Translations under genes and position numbers: made by a program
Assembly (NCBI GenBank): GCA_963815455.1
Contig: CAWFGO010000001.1
Coordinates: forward strand, 96,001-160,000
Direction: 5' to 3'
Origin: an uncultured Verrucomicrobiae bacterium
GTDB lineage: Bacteria; Verrucomicrobiota; Verrucomicrobiia; Chthoniobacterales; UBA10450
Length of the DNA: 64,000 bases
Notes under the pieces: generated by a model
What the model was told of the DNA's origin: nothing
Database searches by the model: none
Seen by the model: the letters and a program-made list of their open reading frames with translations, nothing else
In this document: in pieces, positions 35,513-42,320 of the stretch
Layout: the number at the start of each line of letters is the position of its first letter
Position numbering within the stretch: the first letter of the stretch is position 1

Positions 35513-36574
35513 ATGGATTTTTTCTTCATCATCACGTCACTGCTGAAAATTCTCGGGATCCTTTTTGTCATAATTCTGCCGATGGTTTCTTACAGCGTGT
35601 ATGCCGAACGCCGCGTCAGCGCGCTAATTCAAGACCGGGTCGGACCGAACCGAGTCGGGCCATCGGGATTGCTTCAGCCAATCGCGGACATGTTCAAATT
35701 GCTGCTCAAAGAGGATTTCACACCGCGGCATGTGAACACGTTTTATTACTGGCTCGCGCCGGCGCTGGCGATGATGCCGGCCATTATTACCATCGCGGTT
35801 GTGCCGTTTGGCAGCACGCTTTTCGGCGTCCCGATGGTGATTGCCGACGTCAATGTTGGCGTTCTTTTCATCTTCGCCATCGCGTCGCTCGGCGTTTACG
35901 GGATCGTCATTGCCGGTTGGGCATCGAATTCAAAGTATCCGTTTCTCGGTGGAATCCGTTCCAGTTCGCAAATGCTTTCCTACGAGCTCTCCCTCGGGCT
36001 CGCCGTTATTCCGATCTTCATGCTCGTTGGAAATCTCCGGCTGACCAGTGTCGTTCAGTATCAGATCGACAACGGCTGGTTCATCGTCCCGTTCGTCGGT
36101 GACTGGATGAACCCATGGAAATGGCTCCTCGCCGTTCCGATGATAGTTTCGTTCGTAGTTTTCACGATCGCCATTTTCGCCGAAACAAATCGGTTGCCGT
36201 TCGATCTGCCCGAAGCCGAACAGGAGCTCGCCGGCGGTTATCACACCGAATACAGCTCGATGAAGTTCGCCCTCTTTTTTCTCGGTGAATACGCAGCCAT
36301 GATCACCGGCTCGGCGATTATCGTGACCTTATTTTTCGGTGGCTGGCATTTTCCCGGAATCCCGAATGGATCGCATGGATGGATTTTCGGTCTCATCAAC
36401 ATCGCGGTGTTTTTCACCAAAGTCGCCCTGCTGCTCTTTTTCTTTATCTGGGTTCGCTGGACCCTGCCCCGGTTTCGTTACGATCAATTGATGCGACTCG
36501 GCTGGCTCTTCTTTTTCGAAATCGCGCTGGTAAACATTTTTATTGTCGCGGGAATCCTGGCATTTGCCCACTAA
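35513..36574 (+). CDS. nuoH: NADH-quinone oxidoreductase subunit H
   Basis: QDRVGPNRVG, AETNRLPFDLPEAE, RWTLPRFRYDQLM. Confidence 0.97.
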   Translation: MDFFFIITSLLKILGILFVIILPMVSYSVYAERRVSALIQDRVGPNRVGPSGLLQPIADMFKLLLKEDFTPRHVNTFYYWLAPALAMMPAIITIAVVPFGSTLFGVPMVIADVNVGVLFIFAIASLGVYGIVIAGWASNSKYPFLGGIRSSSQMLSYELSLGLAVIPIFMLVGNLRLTSVVQYQIDNGWFIVPFVGDWMNPWKWLLAVPMIVSFVVFTIAIFAETNRLPFDLPEAEQELAGGYHTEYSSMKFALFFLGEYAAMITGSAIIVTLFFGGWHFPGIPNGSHGWIFGLINIAVFFTKVALLLFFFIWVRWTLPRFRYDQLMRLGWLFFFEIALVNIFIVAGILAFAH

Positions 36575-36649
36575 ACACACGAAATATCACGAAACCGTTT
36601 AGAACTAACTTGATCACATTTTTTGTGTCCTTTCGTATGTTTCGTGGGC
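36566..36649. mobile_element. MITE-like element with GCCCAC terminal inverted repeats, overlapping nuoH stop
   Basis: GCCCACTAAACACACGAAA...TTTCGTATGTTTCGTGGGC; same ends as the GxxExxY cassette. Confidence 0.75.
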
Positions 36650-36660
36650 AATTCTGATTC

Positions 36661-37191
36661 ATGACCGTTACCGTTACACGACCCAATCTAAACTGGCGCG
36701 AGCGATTATATCTGCCCGCAATCGTGGCCGGGCTCGCCATTACCTTTAAGCATTTCAAGAACATGTTGCTCGGCCGGACCAAGGTCACGATGCAATATCC
36801 CGAGCAAAAATGGGACGCGAACATGCCCGATTATTATCGCGGCGCGCCTGCGCTGGTCCGCGACACCGACGGTCGCGTCCGATGTGTGGCCTGCCAGCTT
36901 TGCGAATTCATTTGTCCGCCGCGCGCGATCACCATCGTTCCGGACGAGATTTCTTCGACCGACCGGTTCGCCAAGGTCGAGAAATACCCGATCGAGTTCG
37001 ACATCGACATGATCCGCTGCATTTACTGCGGGATGTGCGAAGAAGTTTGTCCCGAGCAGGCGATCTTTCTGCGCAAAGATTACGCCATCACCGGGTTTAC
37101 CCGCGAAGAAATGGTGCATCACAAAGACAAGCTAATCGAAATCGGCGGCGTCATGCACGGGGTCGTTTTGAAATGGAACGCAAAGAAGTAA
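36661..37191 (+). CDS. nuoI: NADH-quinone oxidoreductase subunit I
   Basis: CVACQLCEFICP and CIYCGMCEEVCP. Confidence 0.97.
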   Translation: MTVTVTRPNLNWRERLYLPAIVAGLAITFKHFKNMLLGRTKVTMQYPEQKWDANMPDYYRGAPALVRDTDGRVRCVACQLCEFICPPRAITIVPDEISSTDRFAKVEKYPIEFDIDMIRCIYCGMCEEVCPEQAIFLRKDYAITGFTREEMVHHKDKLIEIGGVMHGVVLKWNAKK

Positions 37192-37194
37192 GAC

Positions 37195-37314
37195 TTGTCA
37201 TCCCGAACCGCGAAGACGGTGAGGGATCTCGCTATTACCTGAAATTGTCGAGCCAAGGCAAGTCGACGACTTGGGCTCCGGCTGTGAGATCCTTCACTTC
37301 GTTCAGGATGACAA
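37195..37314. repeat. GTCATCC...GGATGAC palindromic element
   Basis: TTGTCATCCCGAAC..GAGGGATCTC...GAGATCCTTCAC..CAGGATGACAA. Confidence 0.88.
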
Positions 37315-37320
37315 AGCGGC

Positions 37321-37356
37321 GGCGGCGTAATGCACGGCGTCGTCCTAGAATGGAAT
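37321..37356 (+). pseudogene. Remnant second copy of nuoI 3' end
   Basis: Encodes GGVMHGVVLEWN versus GGVMHGVVLKWN at 37144..37179. Confidence 0.8.
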
Positions 37357-37413
37357 ACGACAAATGAGTTCGGAAATCCGAAATTCGAAATCCGAAATCC
37401 GAAATTAAAGAGA

Positions 37414-37917
37414 ATGTCGCCTTTTTTATTTTGGACTTTCGCAATGCTGATGCTGGTCTTCGGCGCGGCCGTTGTCATCAATCGCAATCCGGTGGCGAGC
37501 GCGCTGAGTCTGGTCGTTTCGTTTCTCGGGCTGGCCGCCCTCTTTATGTCGCTCAATGCCTATTTCATCGGCATCATTCAAGTGCTCGTTTACGCCGGCG
37601 CGGTGATGGTCCTGTTCCTTTTCATCATCATGCTTCTCCATCTTCGCATCGAGGAACGGCGCCGGATCAACTGGACGGCGTCAGCGGGCGGAATTGTCGT
37701 CGCGCTTGTTTTGCTTGTTCAAATCTTTTTCGTGATTGGAAATTTCGAGCCCGCTCGGCAAGCGATTCCGCCACTCACAGCATCGACAATTGATGATGTC
37801 CACAACATCGGCGCTCTGCTTTTCAGCAATTACAATCTTCCTCTGCAAATCATCGGGGTTCTCATTCTCGTGGCGACCATCGGCGTCGTTCTCCTGAGCA
37901 AACGCGAACCAAGATAG
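37414..37917 (+). CDS. nuoJ: NADH-quinone oxidoreductase subunit J
   Basis: RNPVASAL, QVLVYAGAVMVLFLFIIMLL. Confidence 0.95.
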   Translation: MSPFLFWTFAMLMLVFGAAVVINRNPVASALSLVVSFLGLAALFMSLNAYFIGIIQVLVYAGAVMVLFLFIIMLLHLRIEERRRINWTASAGGIVVALVLLVQIFFVIGNFEPARQAIPPLTASTIDDVHNIGALLFSNYNLPLQIIGVLILVATIGVVLLSKREPR

Positions 37918-37921
37918 TTTA

Positions 37922-38021
37922 GCCCACGAAAATACGCGAAATGACACGAAAACAGAAAATGTCAGGAAATTGCCGATGTTTATCTCTGACATTTTCGCGT
38001 TCTTTCGAGTGTTTAGTGGGC
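37922..38021. mobile_element. MITE-like element with GCCCAC terminal inverted repeats after nuoJ
   Basis: GCCCACGAAAATACGCGAAATGACACGAA...TTTAGTGGGC; retains GCCGAT....TCTCTGA like the GxxExxY gene end. Confidence 0.75.
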
Positions 38022-38034
38022 ACAAAACAATAAC

Positions 38035-38355
38035 ATGATCACGCTGGGCGATTATCTCATGGTCAGCGGCGCGCTGTTCGCCATCGGATTCGCCGGCGTG
38101 ATGCTGCGACGCAATCTCATCATTATTCTGATGTCGTTGGAGTTGATGTTGAACGCATCAAATCTATCTCTGGTAGCTTTCTCGCGATTCCGGATCGATC
38201 CCGCCGGCTTGCCGAATTACAGCGCTCAGGTCTTTGTCTTTTTTATCATCACCGTTGCCGCGGCCGAAGTTGCTGTCGGGCTGGCCATCATCGTCGCTCT
38301 CTATCGCGCCCGCCAAACGACGCATGTGGAAGATCTCAGGAGTTTGAAATTTTAG
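38035..38355 (+). CDS. nuoK: NADH-quinone oxidoreductase subunit K
   Basis: [23 protein letters not shown]. Confidence 0.96.
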
Positions 38356-38831
38356 CCCACGAAACACACGAAATGACACGAATGGAAGAAAAGGGAGAAC
38401 TCGTTTACAAAGATGAAAGCTACGCCAGCATCGGCGCGTGTTTCGTCGTCTACAAAGAGAAAGGGCTGCGGATTTCTCGAGCCGGTTTATCACGAGTGCC
38501 TGGAAATCGAGTTCGAATCCCAAAGGATCCCGTTTCGGTCAAAACCACCCCAAACGCTTCAATATCACGGGCGGACCCTTATCCAGACATTTCATCCCGA
38601 TTTCATTTGCTATGATAAGATCATCCTCGAAATCAAAGCTGTCTCCGTACTATGCGATGAGCATCGCGCTCAGGTGCTTAACTATCTCAGCGCGACGGGA
38701 TGCAAATTGGGGCTGCTCGTCAATTTTGGTCATTGGCCAAGAATCGAATACGAACGCCTCCTTCCTAGAAAACATGAACCCGCCGATTTCCGTCTCTGAA
38801 AATTTCGTGTCCTTTCGTGTGTTTAGTGGGC
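38355..38831 (+). mobile_element. GxxExxY cassette with 28-bp terminal inverted repeats
   Basis: Left GCCCACGAAACACACGAAATGACACGAA; right end reverse-complements to GCCCACTAAACACACGAAAGGACACGAA (2 mismatches). Confidence 0.75.
38382..38799 (+). CDS. GxxExxY protein (PD-(D/E)xK nuclease family); one frameshift near 38463
   Basis: ELVYKDESY..GACFVVYKEKG then CGFLEPVYHECL, PDF..IILEIK, AQVLNYL..GLLVNFG. Confidence 0.9.
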
Positions 38832-38851
38832 AAAAAATGACTCTTCTTTGC

Positions 38852-38902
38852 CGTGCCCGACAAACAACCCACGTGGAAGATCTGCGTAGCCTGAAATTTT
38901 AG
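38852..38902 (+). pseudogene. Remnant second copy of nuoK 3' end abutting nuoL ATG
   Basis: Encodes [16 protein letters not shown], identical in protein to 38305..38355. Confidence 0.9.
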
Positions 38903-40705
38903 ATGGAAGCCGAGAACCTTGTTCCCTGGATCGTGTTGCTCGCGCCGCTGGCCTCGGCGGTCGTGATCACGCTCTTCGCCCGTCGGTCACAAGGGTTGAG
39001 CAGTTTTCTTTCCGTCACTGCTGTGCTCGGGAGTTTTGCCGGGAGCTGCTGGATTTTTCAGCGCACCGGCGATTTCACAGTTGAAATCAATTGGATCGAC
39101 ATCAGCGGCGGGCTCAAGGCGCCGCTCGGGCTCACTCTCGATTATTTGTCCAAGACAATGCTGGTTCTCGTTTCTGGTGTGGGAGCGATTATCCACATTT
39201 ATTCGCTTGGTTACATGCGCGGCGAAGAGGGCAAATCGCGTTATTTCGCCGGTCTGTCGCTCTTCATGTTCGCCATGCTCGGGATCGTTCTGGCCAACAA
39301 CTTCGTGATGTTATTTATTTTTTGGGAGCTGGTGGGATTCACCTCCTACGTGCTCATCGGTCACTGGTTCGATCGTCCGGCGGCGGCAGACGCGGCCAAG
39401 AAGGCGTTCATCACCAATCGTCTCGGCGATTTCGGATTTATGCTTGGCATCCTGATGATTTGGGTGCCGACCGGCTCGGTCGTTTTTCCCGACATCAACG
39501 AGCGATTGTCGATCCTGACGAACAATCCCGCGTATCTGACGGTAGCCGCGCTTCTGATCTTCTGCGGCGCAGTCGGAAAATCCGCGCAATTTCCGCTGCA
39601 CGTCTGGTTGCCAGACGCGATGGAAGGTCCCACGCCGGTCTCAGCGTTGATCCACGCGGCGACGATGGTTGCCGCAGGCGTTTACATGCTGGCCCGCGTC
39701 GCGTTCATCATTCAAGCGTCGGAAACAGCGCTCATGGTCATTGCCTGGATCGGGACGATCACGGCGCTCATGGCCGCGCTGATTGCCACCCAACAGGACG
39801 ACATCAAGCGAGTCCTGGCTTATTCCACGCTTTCGCAGCTCGGTTACATGGTGATGGCCATCGGTCTGGCCTCGAGCGAAGCAGCGATGTTTCACTTGTT
39901 CACCCACGCGTTTTTCAAAGCGCTCCTGTTCCTCGGCGCCGGCTCGGTCATCATCGCGCTGCATCACGAACAGGACATTTGGGAAATGGGCGGCCTCTGG
40001 CGCAATCTCAAGATTACGTTTGTCACATTTCTCATCGGCGCGTTGGCCCTCATGGGTTTGCCGCCGTTCAGCGGTTTTGTCAGCAAGGATGCGATCCTTG
40101 CTCTGGCCTACGAGCATAACAAATCGATCTTCGTGCTCGCCCTGGGCACCGCGTTCTTGACCGCGTTTTATGTCACTCGTTTGCTCATGGTTGTTTTTCT
40201 TGGGCACCCGCGCGGACACGCGGCCCGGGTCAGCAAAGAATCGACGTTTGTCATGACGGGGCCGCTCGTCGTTCTCGCGCTCCTCGTGATTGCGAGCAGT
40301 TTCGCTGCGTTCAACAATCATTTCCTTGTTCTTCCAAGCCAGGGCGCATTTTTAGAGACCGTTCCTTTGTTCGCCACCGGCGCGCTCGTCTTCGGCGTCG
40401 GGCTCGCCTTTCTGTTTTATCGCGGACGCGCCACCGAAGCTGTCTACGTCGATCTTCTCCGCCGCCGTTTTTACATCGACGATTTTTATCAATGGCTCAT
40501 CAACTGGACCCAGGAACTGCTCGCCCGCGTCGCTGCGTTCTTCGATCGCTGGATAATCGACGCCGGCGCGGTCCGCGGAGTGAGCGGCGGCACCTGGGGA
40601 GTCGGCGCGCTGTTGCGATTGGTTCAAGTAGGTAATTTGCAGGCTTACGCGTTTCTCTTCGGCCTGGGCATCGTCGCGCTCATTTATTTTGCCGTTTTCC
40701 GATAG
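38903..40705 (+). CDS. nuoL: NADH-quinone oxidoreductase subunit L
   Basis: GKSAQFPLHVWLPDAMEGPTPVSALIHAATMV, HLFTHAFFKALLF. Confidence 0.97.
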   Translation: MEAENLVPWIVLLAPLASAVVITLFARRSQGLSSFLSVTAVLGSFAGSCWIFQRTGDFTVEINWIDISGGLKAPLGLTLDYLSKTMLVLVSGVGAIIHIYSLGYMRGEEGKSRYFAGLSLFMFAMLGIVLANNFVMLFIFWELVGFTSYVLIGHWFDRPAAADAAKKAFITNRLGDFGFMLGILMIWVPTGSVVFPDINERLSILTNNPAYLTVAALLIFCGAVGKSAQFPLHVWLPDAMEGPTPVSALIHAATMVAAGVYMLARVAFIIQASETALMVIAWIGTITALMAALIATQQDDIKRVLAYSTLSQLGYMVMAIGLASSEAAMFHLFTHAFFKALLFLGAGSVIIALHHEQDIWEMGGLWRNLKITFVTFLIGALALMGLPPFSGFVSKDAILALAYEHNKSIFVLALGTAFLTAFYVTRLLMVVFLGHPRGHAARVSKESTFVMTGPLVVLALLVIASSFAAFNNHFLVLPSQGAFLETVPLFATGALVFGVGLAFLFYRGRATEAVYVDLLRRRFYIDDFYQWLINWTQELLARVAAFFDRWIIDAGAVRGVSGGTWGVGALLRLVQVGNLQAYAFLFGLGIVALIYFAVFR

Positions 40706-40813
40706 CCCACGAAACACACGAAATGACACGAAAAGGAGAAACAGATCTGATTTACGGCGACTCGCTGATTCCTATTTCTGAAAATTCCGTGTCTTTTCGT
40801 GGGTTTCGTGGGC
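40705..40813. mobile_element. MITE-like internal-deletion derivative of the GxxExxY cassette at nuoL stop
   Basis: First 28 bp identical to cassette left end; interior resembles the first and last codons of the GxxExxY ORF. Confidence 0.78.
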
Positions 40814-40838
40814 AAGCAAATCCCCTCCTCTTTCTCTG

Positions 40839-42320
40839 ATGCTTCTTTTCCTCATATTTTGCCCGATCGTTGCGGCGTTCGTGATCATGGCCGGCGCGCC
40901 GGCCCGAAAAACGGCGTTGCTCGCTTCGTGGTTGATGCTCGCGTCCGCGGCCGCACTCTTCGCTCAATTCGCGCAGCTCGAACCGAAGTTTCAGTTTGTC
41001 AGTTCATTTCCAATTTCTCCCGAGTTGCATCTCGGCTTTACCGTTGGGCTCGACGGTTTGAGCCTGATCATGGTGCTGCTGGCCGCCATCGTCACGGTCG
41101 CGGCCGTCTGGTTCGCCGGTAAGATCGACAATCACGAAAATGCATTCTACGCCTGCCTGCTTTTTATTTCCGGCGGCGCGATCGGAGCATTTTCGTCGCT
41201 CGATTTGTTTTTCTTTTATGCCTTTCACGAACTCGCGCTCATCCCGACATTCCTGCTGATCGGAATCTGGGGGAGCGGAAATCGCGTGGCCGCGGCGTGG
41301 AAGATCACAATTTATCTCGCAGTCGGTAGCTTCATCTTGCTGCTTGGCTTGATCCTGCTTTACCAAAGCGTCCCGGCCGCATCGCGGAGTTTCGATATTC
41401 GCGAGCTACAGGCTGCGATCGCGACGCGGCAGATTCCGGCGAATGCGCAGCACAACATTTTCCTGCTCCTGCTTGTCGGCTTCGGAATTCTCGTCTCGCT
41501 GTTTCCGTTCCATACCTGGGCGCCGGAGGCGTACGCATCCGCGCCCGCCCCGGCGGCAATGCTGCATGCCGGCGTCCTGAAAAAATTCGGGCTTTACGGT
41601 TTGCTGCGGATTGCCCTCCCGCTGCTCCCGGAAGGAGCGCGGCACTGGAGCCATCTGTTAATCGTGCTGCTGCTCGGGAATATCATTTACATCGGGTTGG
41701 TCACCATCGCGCAAAAACGACTCGATTGGATGCTTGGTTACTCCAGCGTGATGCACATGGGTTACATTTTTCTCGGGATCGCCAGTGCCAACGTTCTCGG
41801 CACCACTGGGGCCGCGACTCTGATATTCGCGCACGGGCTTTCCATCGCGTTGCTGTTCGCGCTGGCGGGGGAAATTCGCACCCGTACCGGCACGCTCGTG
41901 TTCAGCGATCTCGGCGGTCTCGCGAAAGTGATGCCATTCGCCGGTCTCGCCTTCGGGCTCGGCGCATTCGCGGCCATCGGTCTTCCCGGCTTCGCCAACT
42001 TCGCCGGCGAAATCATGATCTTTTTCGGCGCGTTCCGAACCGGCTGGGATATGACGCGGTTCCACACGTTTCAAATCGCGACCGCGCTGGCGCTCTGGGG
42101 CGTGGTGATCTCAGCCGTTTATATGCTCCGCGCGTATCGAAATGCATTCATGGGTCCGCCGAATGAGCGCTGGAACAAGCTTGTCGATCTTCGTCCCGGC
42201 CTGCGCATCCCGATCGCGTTGCTGGTCGCCGCGCTTCTCTGGATCGGATTTTATCCCCAATCGTTTATCCGCATTCTTGCGCCGGCGCCGAGCACTTATT
42301 CCGCATCCGCAAAGCCATGA
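40839..42320 (+). CDS. nuoM: NADH-quinone oxidoreductase subunit M
   Basis: GLDGLSL, FPFHTWAPEAY, YSSVMHMG, GLPGFANFAGE. Confidence 0.96.
   Translation: MLLFLIFCPIVAAFVIMAGAPARKTALLASWLMLASAAALFAQFAQLEPKFQFVSSFPISPELHLGFTVGLDGLSLIMVLLAAIVTVAAVWFAGKIDNHENAFYACLLFISGGAIGAFSSLDLFFFYAFHELALIPTFLLIGIWGSGNRVAAAWKITIYLAVGSFILLLGLILLYQSVPAASRSFDIRELQAAIATRQIPANAQHNIFLLLLVGFGILVSLFPFHTWAPEAYASAPAPAAMLHAGVLKKFGLYGLLRIALPLLPEGARHWSHLLIVLLLGNIIYIGLVTIAQKRLDWMLGYSSVMHMGYIFLGIASANVLGTTGAATLIFAHGLSIALLFALAGEIRTRTGTLVFSDLGGLAKVMPFAGLAFGLGAFAAIGLPGFANFAGEIMIFFGAFRTGWDMTRFHTFQIATALALWGVVISAVYMLRAYRNAFMGPPNERWNKLVDLRPGLRIPIALLVAALLWIGFYPQSFIRILAPAPSTYSASAKP

What the first reader, a model, noticed from the sequence alone, without database searches (positions are those of the whole stretch)
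38305..38902. nuoK 3' end duplicated around the GxxExxY cassette with only synonymous differences
Seen: 38305..38355 and 38852..38902 both encode [16 protein letters not shown]. They differ at 10 of 51 nt and every change is synonymous. The orphan copy abuts the nuoL ATG (TAG-ATG), so it looks like the ancestral end. Inference: a decaying target-site duplication would not stay synonymous. The two copies therefore diverged as working genes in different lineages, and the cassette arrived carrying a replacement gene end (homology-anchored integration at one side, or Campbell-type integration of a small circle).
Basis: partly seen in the sequence, partly recalled or inferred. Interest (0 to 1): 0.75.

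Follow-up and report, generated by a model that had tools for sequence, protein, structure and literature searches.

The report
Displaced nuoK tail beside nuclease cassette
The last 17 codons of a respiratory-chain gene occur twice, on either side of a small selfish hairpin cassette, and the differences between the copies mark a scar of recombination between two long-separated versions of this locus rather than a working feature.

Summary
38305-38355 and 38852-38902 both encode [16 protein letters not shown], and the 10 differences in 51 nt leave the peptide unchanged. Ten random substitutions were all silent in 0 of 100,000 trials.

Between the copies lies a 28-nt-inverted-repeat cassette with a frameshifted GxxExxY/PDDEXK_3 nuclease gene. 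New here: the 20 nt between the cassette and the orphan look like the first codons of a nuoL gene. The layout is therefore nuoK | cassette | nuoL' | 'nuoK | nuoL, a joint between a cassette-bearing and a cassette-free haplotype that had diverged to synonymous saturation (pS 0.78).

The cassette sits at this site in six related genera and is as diverged as the flanking genes. Orphans in two of them are decaying. Thirty other cassette loci have no bracketing orphan.

Best reading: one-sided homologous plus illegitimate recombination, or break repair on a foreign template.

The same genome holds at least three more synonymous-biased gene-end duplications, including nuoI. This scan has noted similar scars in other genomes. 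It is a new member of a known kind.

The parts
38035..38355 (+). nuoK, complete (106 aa), stop TAG 38353-38355 whose G is the first base of the cassette's left arm
   Evidence: ORF; NF004320 NuoK E 4.5e-33, above cut-off
38305..38355 (+). functional copy of the duplicated nuoK end (16 codons + TAG)
38355..38382 (+). left inverted-repeat arm of the cassette (pairing extends to 38350)
   Evidence: I1 (33 nt, 91% complementary); motif hits
38373..38799 (+). GxxExxY / PDDEXK_3 nuclease gene. It is broken by one extra base near 38458-38460: the N-terminal 25-30 codons are in frame 38373.., the rest in frame 38413-38799.
   Evidence: TIGR04256 E 2.5e-32; PF13366 E 2.4e-31; intact homologues; (1 nt 'left out' at 38460 in some relatives' contigs, extra base shared by contig X3:17)
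38804..38831 (+). right inverted-repeat arm (pairing extends to 38836)
   Evidence: I1
38832..38851 (+). spacer: an A-run plus a probable remnant of a nuoL start. The ATG at 38837 lies 5 nt after the arm, as in relatives. The remnant runs into CGTG 38852-38855, which is shared with the orphan (inferred microhomology joint).
   Evidence: end-to-end alignment with nuoL start of L005, score 11, reached by 14 of 2000 shuffles; arm-to-start distance 7-10 nt in L002, L003, L004, L019
38852..38902 (+). orphan copy of the nuoK end, TAG abutting the nuoL ATG
38837..38902 (+). 21-codon mini-ORF (nuoL' start codon read into the orphan in frame) ending TAG|ATG at nuoL; a possible relay for translational coupling (inferred only)
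   Evidence: frame open; no family
38903..40705 (+). nuoL, complete (600 aa)
   Evidence: NF005141 E 3.2e-191
37143..37355 (+). second case in the same operon. The nuoI end (37143-37178) is repeated at 37320-37355 around a different 118-nt hairpin element (37196-37313). The repeat has 6 nt differences and 1 amino-acid change, and its distal end is decayed.
   Evidence: D7
36565..36649 (.). ORF-less hairpin element of the same arm family, between nuoH and nuoI; two more lie at 37921-38022 (nuoJ/K) and 40705-40813 (nuoL/M)
   Evidence: D2/D3/I2-I9; (z -5.7 to -6.8)

Best explanation
The locus is a recombination scar. Two versions of the nuoK-nuoL junction existed in related lineages. One had the hairpin GxxExxY cassette directly behind the nuoK stop and directly before the nuoL start. 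The other was cassette-free, with nuoK TAG abutting nuoL ATG. Their nuoK ends had each evolved as working gene ends until silent sites were saturated.

A single event joined the cassette-bearing version, cut about 19 nt into its nuoL, to the cassette-free version 51 nt before its nuoK stop, at a CGTG microhomology. The other side of the exchange was ordinary homologous recombination. This corresponds to homology-facilitated illegitimate recombination, or to repair of a break next to the palindrome on a diverged incoming template.

The result keeps a complete nuoK and a complete nuoL, which is why it survived. The stranded 51 nt are a young, unselected relic.

Shown: the duplication, its purely silent divergence, the cassette's anatomy, its age at this site, and the decay of orphans elsewhere.
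Inferred: the nuoL' remnant, the microhomology joint, the mechanism and the youth of the event.
Not resolved: which side was imported.
For: 1. Silent-only divergence at saturation. pS is 0.78 and no residue changed. Ten random substitutions were all silent in 0 of 100,000 trials. If half of that divergence had accrued in a neutral orphan, many replacement changes would be expected (my estimate, not computed: about 20 or more at the 36.5 non-synonymous sites).

2. Orphans are not protected elsewhere. G018 (L008) has a 40-nt orphan with 4 of 12 residues changed. G009 (L009) keeps only the last 10-29 nt. G011, G013, G023 and G022 have none (sequences).

3. Cassette-bearing relatives place the nuoL start 7-10 nt after the right arm. 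Here an ATG lies 5 nt after the arm. The 19 nt from it align end to end with a relative's nuoL start, score 11, reached by 14 of 2000 shuffles.

4. Orthologous nuoK ends from different genera can be silent-only at this distance. Of 137 pairs with 9-11 nt differences, 3 had 0 residue changes, for example L003/L005, which share unusual residues.

5. The cassette does not itself make orphans. None of 30 other GxxExxY loci in the family had a gene tail repeated across the cassette.

6. Other scars of the same kind occur in this genome around unrelated inserts: nuoI pS 0.75/pN 0.04, C5:179577 0.72/0.04, C3:650303 orphan 2 0.86/0.

7. Relatives' contigs from another data set bridge cassette, orphan region and nuoL.
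Against: - No parental (cassette-free or donor) allele was found. The metagenome scan gave 9 loci, none close. The genome scan gave 1 unrelated hit. Only one same-genus genome exists among those searched.
- Identical peptides at 10 nt differences are rare even among orthologues: 0 of 48 pairs with exactly 10 differences, and 3 of 137 with 9-11. Both copies also share the residues L-R-S, seen in none of the 28 relatives' ends listed. The two parents would therefore have to be close in protein yet saturated at silent sites.
- The nuoL' remnant is 1 nt out of frame relative to an intact nuoL start, and its support is modest (p about 0.007).
- Orphans at the same site in three genera could mean one old event rather than separate young ones.
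- A duplication, rather than a deletion, is not the usual product described for homology-facilitated illegitimate recombination (recalled; passages in PMC5361080 describe displacement).
Confidence: 0.58

Rival explanations
1. Self-mobile unit in the manner of fungal mitochondrial mORFs or of e14/phage 21 in icd. The nuclease cassette travels together with a recoded copy of the nuoK end. The nuclease cuts cassette-free junctions inside the nuoK end, and repair copies cassette plus replacement end. The silent recoding makes the carrier immune to its own nuclease.
For: - The order gene core / inserted end / nuclease ORF / native end is exactly that of the mORF gene hybrids, whose inserted ends also differ mostly silently (PMC3630166, passages read).
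- A PD-(D/E)XK nuclease gene lies in the insert.
- The cassette occupies the same nuoK|nuoL site in six related genera, and orphans occur in three genomes.
- Silent-site saturation together with perfect residue identity, including lineage-specific L-R-S, would fit selection for recoding.
Against: - None of 30 other GxxExxY cassette loci in the family shows a gene tail repeated across the cassette.
- Orphan lengths differ (51, 40 and about 12 nt).
- The nuoL' remnant indicates an imprecise joint.
- Cassette divergence matches host divergence, so there is no sign of recent spread.
- The nuclease gene is broken here and in G009.
- The nuoI case has only a gene-less hairpin element.
- Nuclease activity of this family is untested; the search for 'GxxExxY' found 3 papers, 2 of them listed, each with a single occurrence.
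Confidence: 0.15
2. [quoted passage not shown] The structure would be old and its letters young.
For: - Orphans sit at the same place in G000, G018 and G009.
- The cassette is old at the site.
- Insertions flanked by 30-420-bp target repeats without any mobility gene are documented for nuclease-bearing restriction-modification units (PMC2853133, passages read).
- Simple tandem [gene end + hairpin element] repeats exist in this genome at C3:217064 and C1:1098793.
Against: - It needs two events where one suffices.
- The orphan's left border differs between genera.
- The spacer is better explained as a nuoL start than as decayed nuoK (4 of 12 matches by eye).
- G001 (same genus), G011, G013 and G022 have no orphan.
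Confidence: 0.14
3. The orphan is kept by selection because it is translated. The 21-codon mini-ORF 38837-38902 starts at the leftover nuoL start codon and ends TAG|ATG, relaying ribosomes to nuoL. Both copies therefore stay under constraint.
For: - The mini-ORF is in frame and ends exactly at the nuoL ATG.
- No Shine-Dalgarno-like motif precedes nuoL (by eye).
- The leftover ATG has the same context that serves nuoL in cassette-bearing relatives.
Against: - Coupling needs translation, not a particular peptide, so it does not explain silent-only change.
- Relatives' orphans are not intact ORFs, and the roughly 93%-similar soil strains lack about 30 nt here.
- No family matches the peptide.
Confidence: 0.08
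4. Assembly artefact: a chimera of two strains.
For: The genome comes without reads that I could lay. Several relatives' contigs break at 38309 and 38846, the borders of the repeat.
Against: - Two independent contigs from another data set bridge cassette to nuoL through the orphan region.
- The two copies share no run longer than 11 nt, so they cannot confuse an assembler.
- Similar structures occur at other loci of this genome and in G018.
Confidence: 0.03

Closest known systems
mORF gene hybrids of fungal mitochondria (Allomyces macrogynus atp6; Glomus sp. atp6, atp9, cox2, nad3); PMC3630166, passages read
   Same: The order of parts is the same: gene core, inserted replacement C-terminus, nuclease ORF, stranded native C-terminus. 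The two ends differ strongly at DNA level but little or not at all in protein. The authors interpret this as transfer from another lineage.
   Different: In mORFs the nuclease is LAGLIDADG or GIY-YIG with demonstrated mobility (as stated in that paper). Here it is an uncharacterised, frameshifted PD-(D/E)XK gene inside a hairpin cassette. A nuoL' remnant marks an imprecise joint, and 0 of 30 other cassettes of the family carry a gene end. It is a bacterial chromosome, not mtDNA.
e14 prophage in E. coli icd with the icdC relic; PMC13626634, passages read; phage 21 recalled
   Same: The insert supplies the working 3' end of an essential-pathway gene and leaves the displaced end as a pseudogene downstream. 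The differences are largely silent.
   Different: e14 is a 15-kb element with its own site-specific recombination system that excises under SOS. Here the insert is 0.5 kb, there is no recombinase, and there is no identical core longer than 11 nt.
Homology-facilitated illegitimate recombination and the orphan arrays it is invoked for (T6SS effector-immunity, Rhs); PMC5361080 passages; PMC3240628 abstract in listing
   Same: There is one homologous anchor in a conserved gene and the other end is joined illegitimately. Earlier 3' pieces are stranded downstream.
   Different: Those arrays displace variable toxin tips and immunity genes under diversifying selection. Here a housekeeping gene end is replaced by a protein-identical one, and the parents were not recovered.
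Insertion with long target duplication of restriction-modification units (Furuta, Abe and Kobayashi 2010, PMC2853133; passages read)
   Same: A nuclease-bearing insert without mobility genes is flanked by direct repeats longer than 30 bp, and these can overlap a gene's 3' end.
   Different: The repeats listed in the passages I read are about 93-100% identical (44/46, 47/47; 384/412, 417/423, 388/397), and both align to one target in an empty-site strain. Here they are 80% identical with only silent differences, and no empty-site genome is available.
GxxExxY hairpin cassettes noted repeatedly by this scan (e.g. e1-782843, e1-5072438, e1-4980788); not found described in print (search 'GxxExxY': 3 papers, 2 of them listed, each with one occurrence)
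   Same: The same cassette design occurs, with gene-less hairpin derivatives in operon spacers, including nuo operons.
   Different: Those notes concern the cassette. The present finding concerns the duplicated gene end, which is not a general property of the cassette.

Membership tests
NuoK (NADH-quinone oxidoreductase subunit K) | Full-length match to the NCBIfam equivalog above its cut-off | tested here: met
   NF004320 113.2 bits (cut-off 57), residues 3-105 of 106
GxxExxY / PDDEXK_3 (TIGR04256, PF13366) | HMM match above the curated cut-off | tested here: met
   111.7 bits (cut-off 35); 108.9 bits (cut-off 22); profile positions 15-115 of 116
GxxExxY / PDDEXK_3 (TIGR04256, PF13366) | Intact reading frame | tested here: not met
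   One extra base near 38458-38460 splits the gene (intact homologues). The extra base is shared by contig X3:17 and absent from contigs in X1 and X4.
Integrative element targeting a gene 3' end (e14 / phage 21 type) | Integrase or other recombinase gene in the element | tested here: not met
   The 477-nt element holds one ORF family only.
Integrative element targeting a gene 3' end (e14 / phage 21 type) | Identical att core shared by both repeats | tested here: not met
   The longest identical run between the copies is 11 nt.
Integrative element targeting a gene 3' end (e14 / phage 21 type) | The element supplies a working replacement end, and the displaced end lies on the far side | tested here: met
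mORF-type mobile nuclease carrying a gene terminus | Nuclease ORF lying between the inserted and the native terminus | tested here: met
   (layout only; nuclease activity not testable here)
mORF-type mobile nuclease carrying a gene terminus | The native terminus is clearly closer to near relatives than the inserted one | tested here: inconclusive
   Against G001 (same genus), the orphan has 12 differences and the functional copy 15 of 51 (by eye). Against G009 the identities are 82% and 86%. All relatives are about 80% identical.
mORF-type mobile nuclease carrying a gene terminus | Other copies of the element also carry a terminus of their target gene | tested here: not met
   0 of 30 further cassette loci. 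Only G018 and weakly G009 at this same site.
Insertion with long target duplication (RM-type) | Direct repeats longer than 30 bp flank an insert without mobility genes | tested here: met
[quoted passage not shown]
   80% identity with saturated silent sites. No empty-site genome of the species was found.
Homology-facilitated illegitimate recombination product | Illegitimate joint at a short microhomology, with foreign sequence on one side | tested here: inconclusive
   The nuoL'-like spacer ends in CGTG, shared with the orphan.
Transposon target-site duplication | Short fixed-length repeats directly abutting both terminal inverted repeats, at every copy | tested here: not met
   20 nt separate the right arm from the orphan. 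The three ORF-less copies in the operon show no flanking direct repeat (by eye).

The most novel reading that the evidence does not exclude
GxxExxY hairpin cassettes may be free-standing homing-nuclease elements of bacterial chromosomes that, like fungal mitochondrial mORFs, can move together with a silently recoded, cleavage-immune copy of the target gene's end. On this reading the silent-site saturation with perfect residue identity at nuoK (and at other gene ends in this genome) records selection for recoding rather than long separate descent. The leftover nuoL start, read into the orphan, would then serve as a relay ORF that restores coupled translation of nuoL.
Probability: 0.12. Interest if true: 0.8.

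Novelty: new member of a known kind. Interest (0 to 1): 0.45.

Why it matters
The scar shows that a core respiratory operon of a soil bacterium has exchanged DNA with a lineage diverged to silent-site saturation, and that the exchange ended in an imprecise joint next to a palindromic selfish cassette. Such stranded gene ends are built-in records of the other parent. Read systematically, they could measure how often and how far housekeeping loci recombine, and whether hairpin cassettes provoke the breaks.

This genome alone has at least four such cases, and this scan has noted similar ones in other phyla. The phenomenon may therefore be general, although each single case is an unselected relic.

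Tried and rejected
- Donor/recipient assignment by similarity. All 28 relatives are 70-86% identical in every segment, and the same-genus genome is not closer than the others. No assignment was possible.
- Codon usage of the two copies. The summed log relative frequencies are -18.8 and -18.9, which is uninformative.
- Search for parental alleles. A degenerate pattern for the last 10 codons + stop gave 9 loci in metagenome contigs, none close and none with an orphan. It gave 1 unrelated locus in genome contigs.
- Sequencing runs. There were 4 DNA runs of one soil study with small shares (0.08-0.11) and no RNA holder listed. Laid as contigs only, they give no raw reads of the source and no clear cassette-free joint among the joints shown (16 joints were not shown).
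- Rfam. There were 0 matches at E <= 1 in 36400-41000.
- Promoter/terminator scan. It found 0 promoter-like sites and 8 terminator-like sites against 7.3 expected, none in the cassette.
- Target-site duplication and orphan-as-conserved-peptide readings. Both were rejected (see the membership test).
- Genome-wide tail scan. It gave 166 same-strand hits against 18 on the control strand, but most are tandem paralogues, repeat-arm translations or wrong-frame ORFs. I inspected 9 of them and kept 4 as silent-biased cases.
- One search used a wrong frame for the nuoI query. Only the raw sequences printed there were used.

Full report
**Observation.**
Window 38305-38355 is the end of nuoK (38035-38355; NuoK equivalog E 4.5e-33). 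Window 38852-38902 repeats it. Both encode [16 protein letters not shown], and they differ at 10 of 51 nt without any residue change. The second copy's TAG is followed directly by the ATG of nuoL (38903-40705; NuoL E 3e-191). Ten random substitutions on this stretch were all silent in 0 of 100,000 trials. The proportion of silent sites that differ is 0.78, which is at saturation.

**What lies between the copies.**
- Directly from the G of the nuoK TAG runs a 28-nt arm (38355-38382). Its inverted partner is 38804-38831, with 2 mismatches (I1).
- The arms enclose a gene of the GxxExxY / PDDEXK_3 family (TIGR04256 E 2.5e-32; PF13366 E 2.4e-31).
- One extra base near 38458-38460 breaks the gene. 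The first 25-30 codons are in the frame of 38373 and the rest in the frame of 38413-38799.
- In soil-metagenome contigs of relatives, this base is missing in some contigs (X1, X4), and the extra base is present in another (X3:17). The frameshift is therefore a real allele, not an error of this assembly.
- Gene-less elements with the same arms fill the spacers nuoH/I, nuoJ/K and nuoL/M. They fold as long hairpins with z -5.7 to -6.8.
- The genome has only about 19 arm-motif hits, 8 of them in this operon, and one other, broken, GxxExxY gene.
- No Rfam family matches.

**The spacer.**
Between the right arm and the orphan lie 20 nt (38832-38851).
- In relatives that carry the cassette or its gene-less form at this site, the nuoL start codon lies 7-10 nt after the right arm (L002, L003, L004, L019).
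- Here an ATG lies 5 nt after the arm.
- The 19 nt from it, ending in CGTG, align end to end with the nuoL start of relative L005 up to the conserved Pro-Trp codons. The score of 11 was reached by 14 of 2000 shuffles against 32 relatives' starts.
- It is 1 nt short of being in frame with an intact nuoL start.

I read the locus as nuoK | cassette | nuoL' (19 nt) | 'nuoK (51 nt) | nuoL. This is a joint between a cassette-bearing and a cassette-free form of the junction, at a 4-nt microhomology. The support is suggestive, not proof.

**Relatives.**
- Of 41 genomes searched, 40 have nuoK.
- Among the 28 relatives with both genes on one locus, 19 have nuoK and nuoL within 25 nt.
- Six have a GxxExxY cassette directly behind the nuoK stop: G011, G013, G023, G018, G009 and G022 (confirmed by the family search).
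- G001, the only same-genus genome, has a gene-less element with the same arms. Two further relatives have other hairpin elements.
- G003's locus (unpublished) ends in nuoK and was left out. G008 (unpublished) is one of the 19.
- The G000 and G009 cassettes are 76.7% identical over 485 nt, like the flanking genes at 76-80%. The nuoK-stop/left-arm junction is 94.7% identical over 38 nt between G000 and G001.
- The cassette is therefore old at this site in this clade.

**Orphans elsewhere.**
- A test of the last 60 nt of nuoK against the 110 nt before nuoL finds an orphan in G018. It is 40 nt long, was matched by 0 of 1000 shuffles, and has 4 of 12 residues changed.
- A weak orphan occurs in G009 (3 of 1000 shuffles; essentially the last few codons + stop).
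- None was found in G011, G023, G022 or G005 (L013). G013 gave a borderline match (26 of 1000), which I read by eye as lying in the arm region.
- In G018 and G009 the orphan's TGA overlaps the TTG start of nuoL (by eye).
- Orphans recur at this junction, and where they are older they decay. The orphan is not a conserved peptide.

**Is the duplication a property of the cassette?**
The family profile matches 50 of 61 family genomes. In 30 further cassette loci I found no gene tail repeated across the cassette. The only hits at least 450 nt apart were 6-10-residue matches, which looked from their composition like translations of repeat arms; I did not inspect each one. The cassette as such does not make orphans.

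**Is it a property of the genome?**
A scan of every ORF tail against its downstream 2.5 kb gave 166 hits on the same strand and 18 on the control strand. Most are paralogues or repeats. Of the nine I inspected, I class six here.

| Locus | Insert between the copies | pS / pN |
|---|---|---|
| nuoI end (37143-37178 / 37320-37355) | a different hairpin element | 0.75 / 0.04 |
| C5:179577 | 716-nt insert | 0.72 / 0.04 |
| C3:650303, aldehyde-dehydrogenase-like end (named by eye), second of two orphans | about 0.8 kb: a ~700-nt two-ORF insert, a decayed first orphan and a short repeat | 0.86 / 0 |
| C2:90612, ribosomal-protein-L11-like end (named by eye) | 700-nt insert | 0.25 / 0 |

- The first three loci, like nuoK, are silent-biased with silent sites near saturation. 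C2:90612 shows only three silent differences.
- The distal end of the nuoI orphan is decayed.
- In relatives' contigs, one joint runs from nuoI straight into the orphan-type end (37125 -> 37320, side 36 nt, three runs).
- Two others, C3:217064 and C1:1098793, are plain, nearly identical tandem repeats of gene end + hairpin element.

**Inference.**
If the two nuoK ends had started identical and the orphan had drifted freely, replacement changes should outnumber silent ones in it. There are none. Both copies must therefore have been working gene ends for nearly all of their separation, and they were joined recently.

Orthologous ends from different genera can look like this, but rarely. Of 137 pairs with 9-11 differences, 3 had identical peptides. 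None of the 48 pairs with exactly 10 differences did. The pairs are not independent, and G001 and G003 were not in this set. Both copies share L-R-S, which none of the 28 relatives' ends listed has. The two parents were therefore probably close in protein while saturated at silent sites.

**Mechanism.**
The simplest route is a homologous exchange on one side and an illegitimate joint on the other. This matches what is described as homology-facilitated illegitimate recombination and is invoked for orphan arrays (PMC5361080, passages; PMC3240628, abstract in listing). Equivalently, a break beside the palindrome could have been repaired on an incoming diverged template. That palindromes provoke breaks is recalled, not tested here. 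A Campbell-type single crossover of a circle gives the same product.

**Direction.**
Because the cassette and its left junction are old in this clade, the reverse is at least as likely: a resident cassette allele, with an imported 'nuoK-nuoL piece. Neither similarity nor codon usage decides, and no parental allele was found.

**Possible consequence.**
The leftover ATG at 38837 is in frame with the orphan. This gives a 21-codon ORF that ends TAG|ATG at nuoL, and nuoL has no obvious Shine-Dalgarno motif (by eye). The ORF could relay ribosomes to nuoL. This is inference only, and it would not explain silent-only divergence.

**Comparison with known systems.**
- The closest layout is that of the mORF gene hybrids of fungal mitochondria (PMC3630166).
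- Next is e14 in icd with its icdC relic (PMC13626634).
- Then come insertions with long target duplication of restriction-modification units (PMC2853133).
- The present case lacks a recombinase, an identical core, near-identical repeats and recurrence at other cassette copies. I therefore file it as a recombination scar of the displaced-gene-end kind, not as a member of those element families.
- This scan has noted similar silent-only gene-end duplications in other genomes (lepA, rny, rpsJ, ettA, eIF4E), and has noted the GxxExxY hairpin cassettes many times. Those notes gave leads to papers, not evidence.
- The only paper search for the cassette family ('GxxExxY') found 3 papers; the 2 listed each hold a single occurrence.

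**Verdict.**
This is a real, young scar without demonstrated function, and a new member of a known kind. Interest is moderate.

Noticed in passing
window 37143-37355: The nuoI end is duplicated around a different 118-nt hairpin element (37196-37313). The repeat has 6 nt differences and 1 residue change in 12 codons, and the orphan's last codons are decayed with a 1-nt indel. Relatives' contigs include one that runs from nuoI directly into the orphan-type end.
   Followed up: partly
window 36560-36580, 38350-38358, 40700-40708: The stop codons of nuoH (TAA), nuoK (TAG) and nuoL (TAG) lie inside or overlap the outermost bases of the left arms of the hairpin elements. The elements appear to supply or share the stop codon of the upstream gene.
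   Followed up: no
G000 contig C5 near 179,500 (outside the window): The last 23 codons of a 179-codon ORF are repeated 716 nt downstream (1 residue and 14 nt differences). The 12 nt after both stops are identical. The insert holds small ORFs, among them a minus-strand Cys/Gly-rich 46-codon ORF.
   Followed up: partly
G000 contig C3 near 650,300 (outside the window): An aldehyde-dehydrogenase-like gene end is followed by a ~700-nt insert with two small ORFs, then a decayed 37-codon orphan, then a second 12-codon orphan with 6 silent and 0 replacement differences. This is a stack of displaced ends.
   Followed up: partly
G000 contig C2 near 90,600 and 82,300 (outside the window): A ribosomal-protein-L11-like gene end is repeated 700 nt downstream (3 silent differences). 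Another gene end is repeated 471 nt downstream around a hairpin element (5 of 21 residues changed).
   Followed up: partly
G000 contigs C3 near 217,060 and C1 near 1,098,790 (outside the window): Nearly identical tandem repeats of [gene end + hairpin element], with units of 240 and 195 nt.
   Followed up: partly
relatives' nuo operons (places): Many family genomes have a second GxxExxY gene about 4-5 kb upstream of nuoK in the same operon (for example G009, G006, G020, G021, G005, G008). G001 has one about 2 kb downstream. The nuo operon is a preferred home of these cassettes.
   Followed up: no
L009 (G009) about 2120-2200: The GxxExxY gene at the nuoK|nuoL site of G009 also looks frameshifted, by one extra T (by eye). 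The family match stops at profile position 97.
   Followed up: partly
window 37366-37400: A short run of GAAATCC/GAAATTC heptamers lies just upstream of the nuoJ start, in frame with nuoJ and with the nuoI orphan.
   Followed up: no
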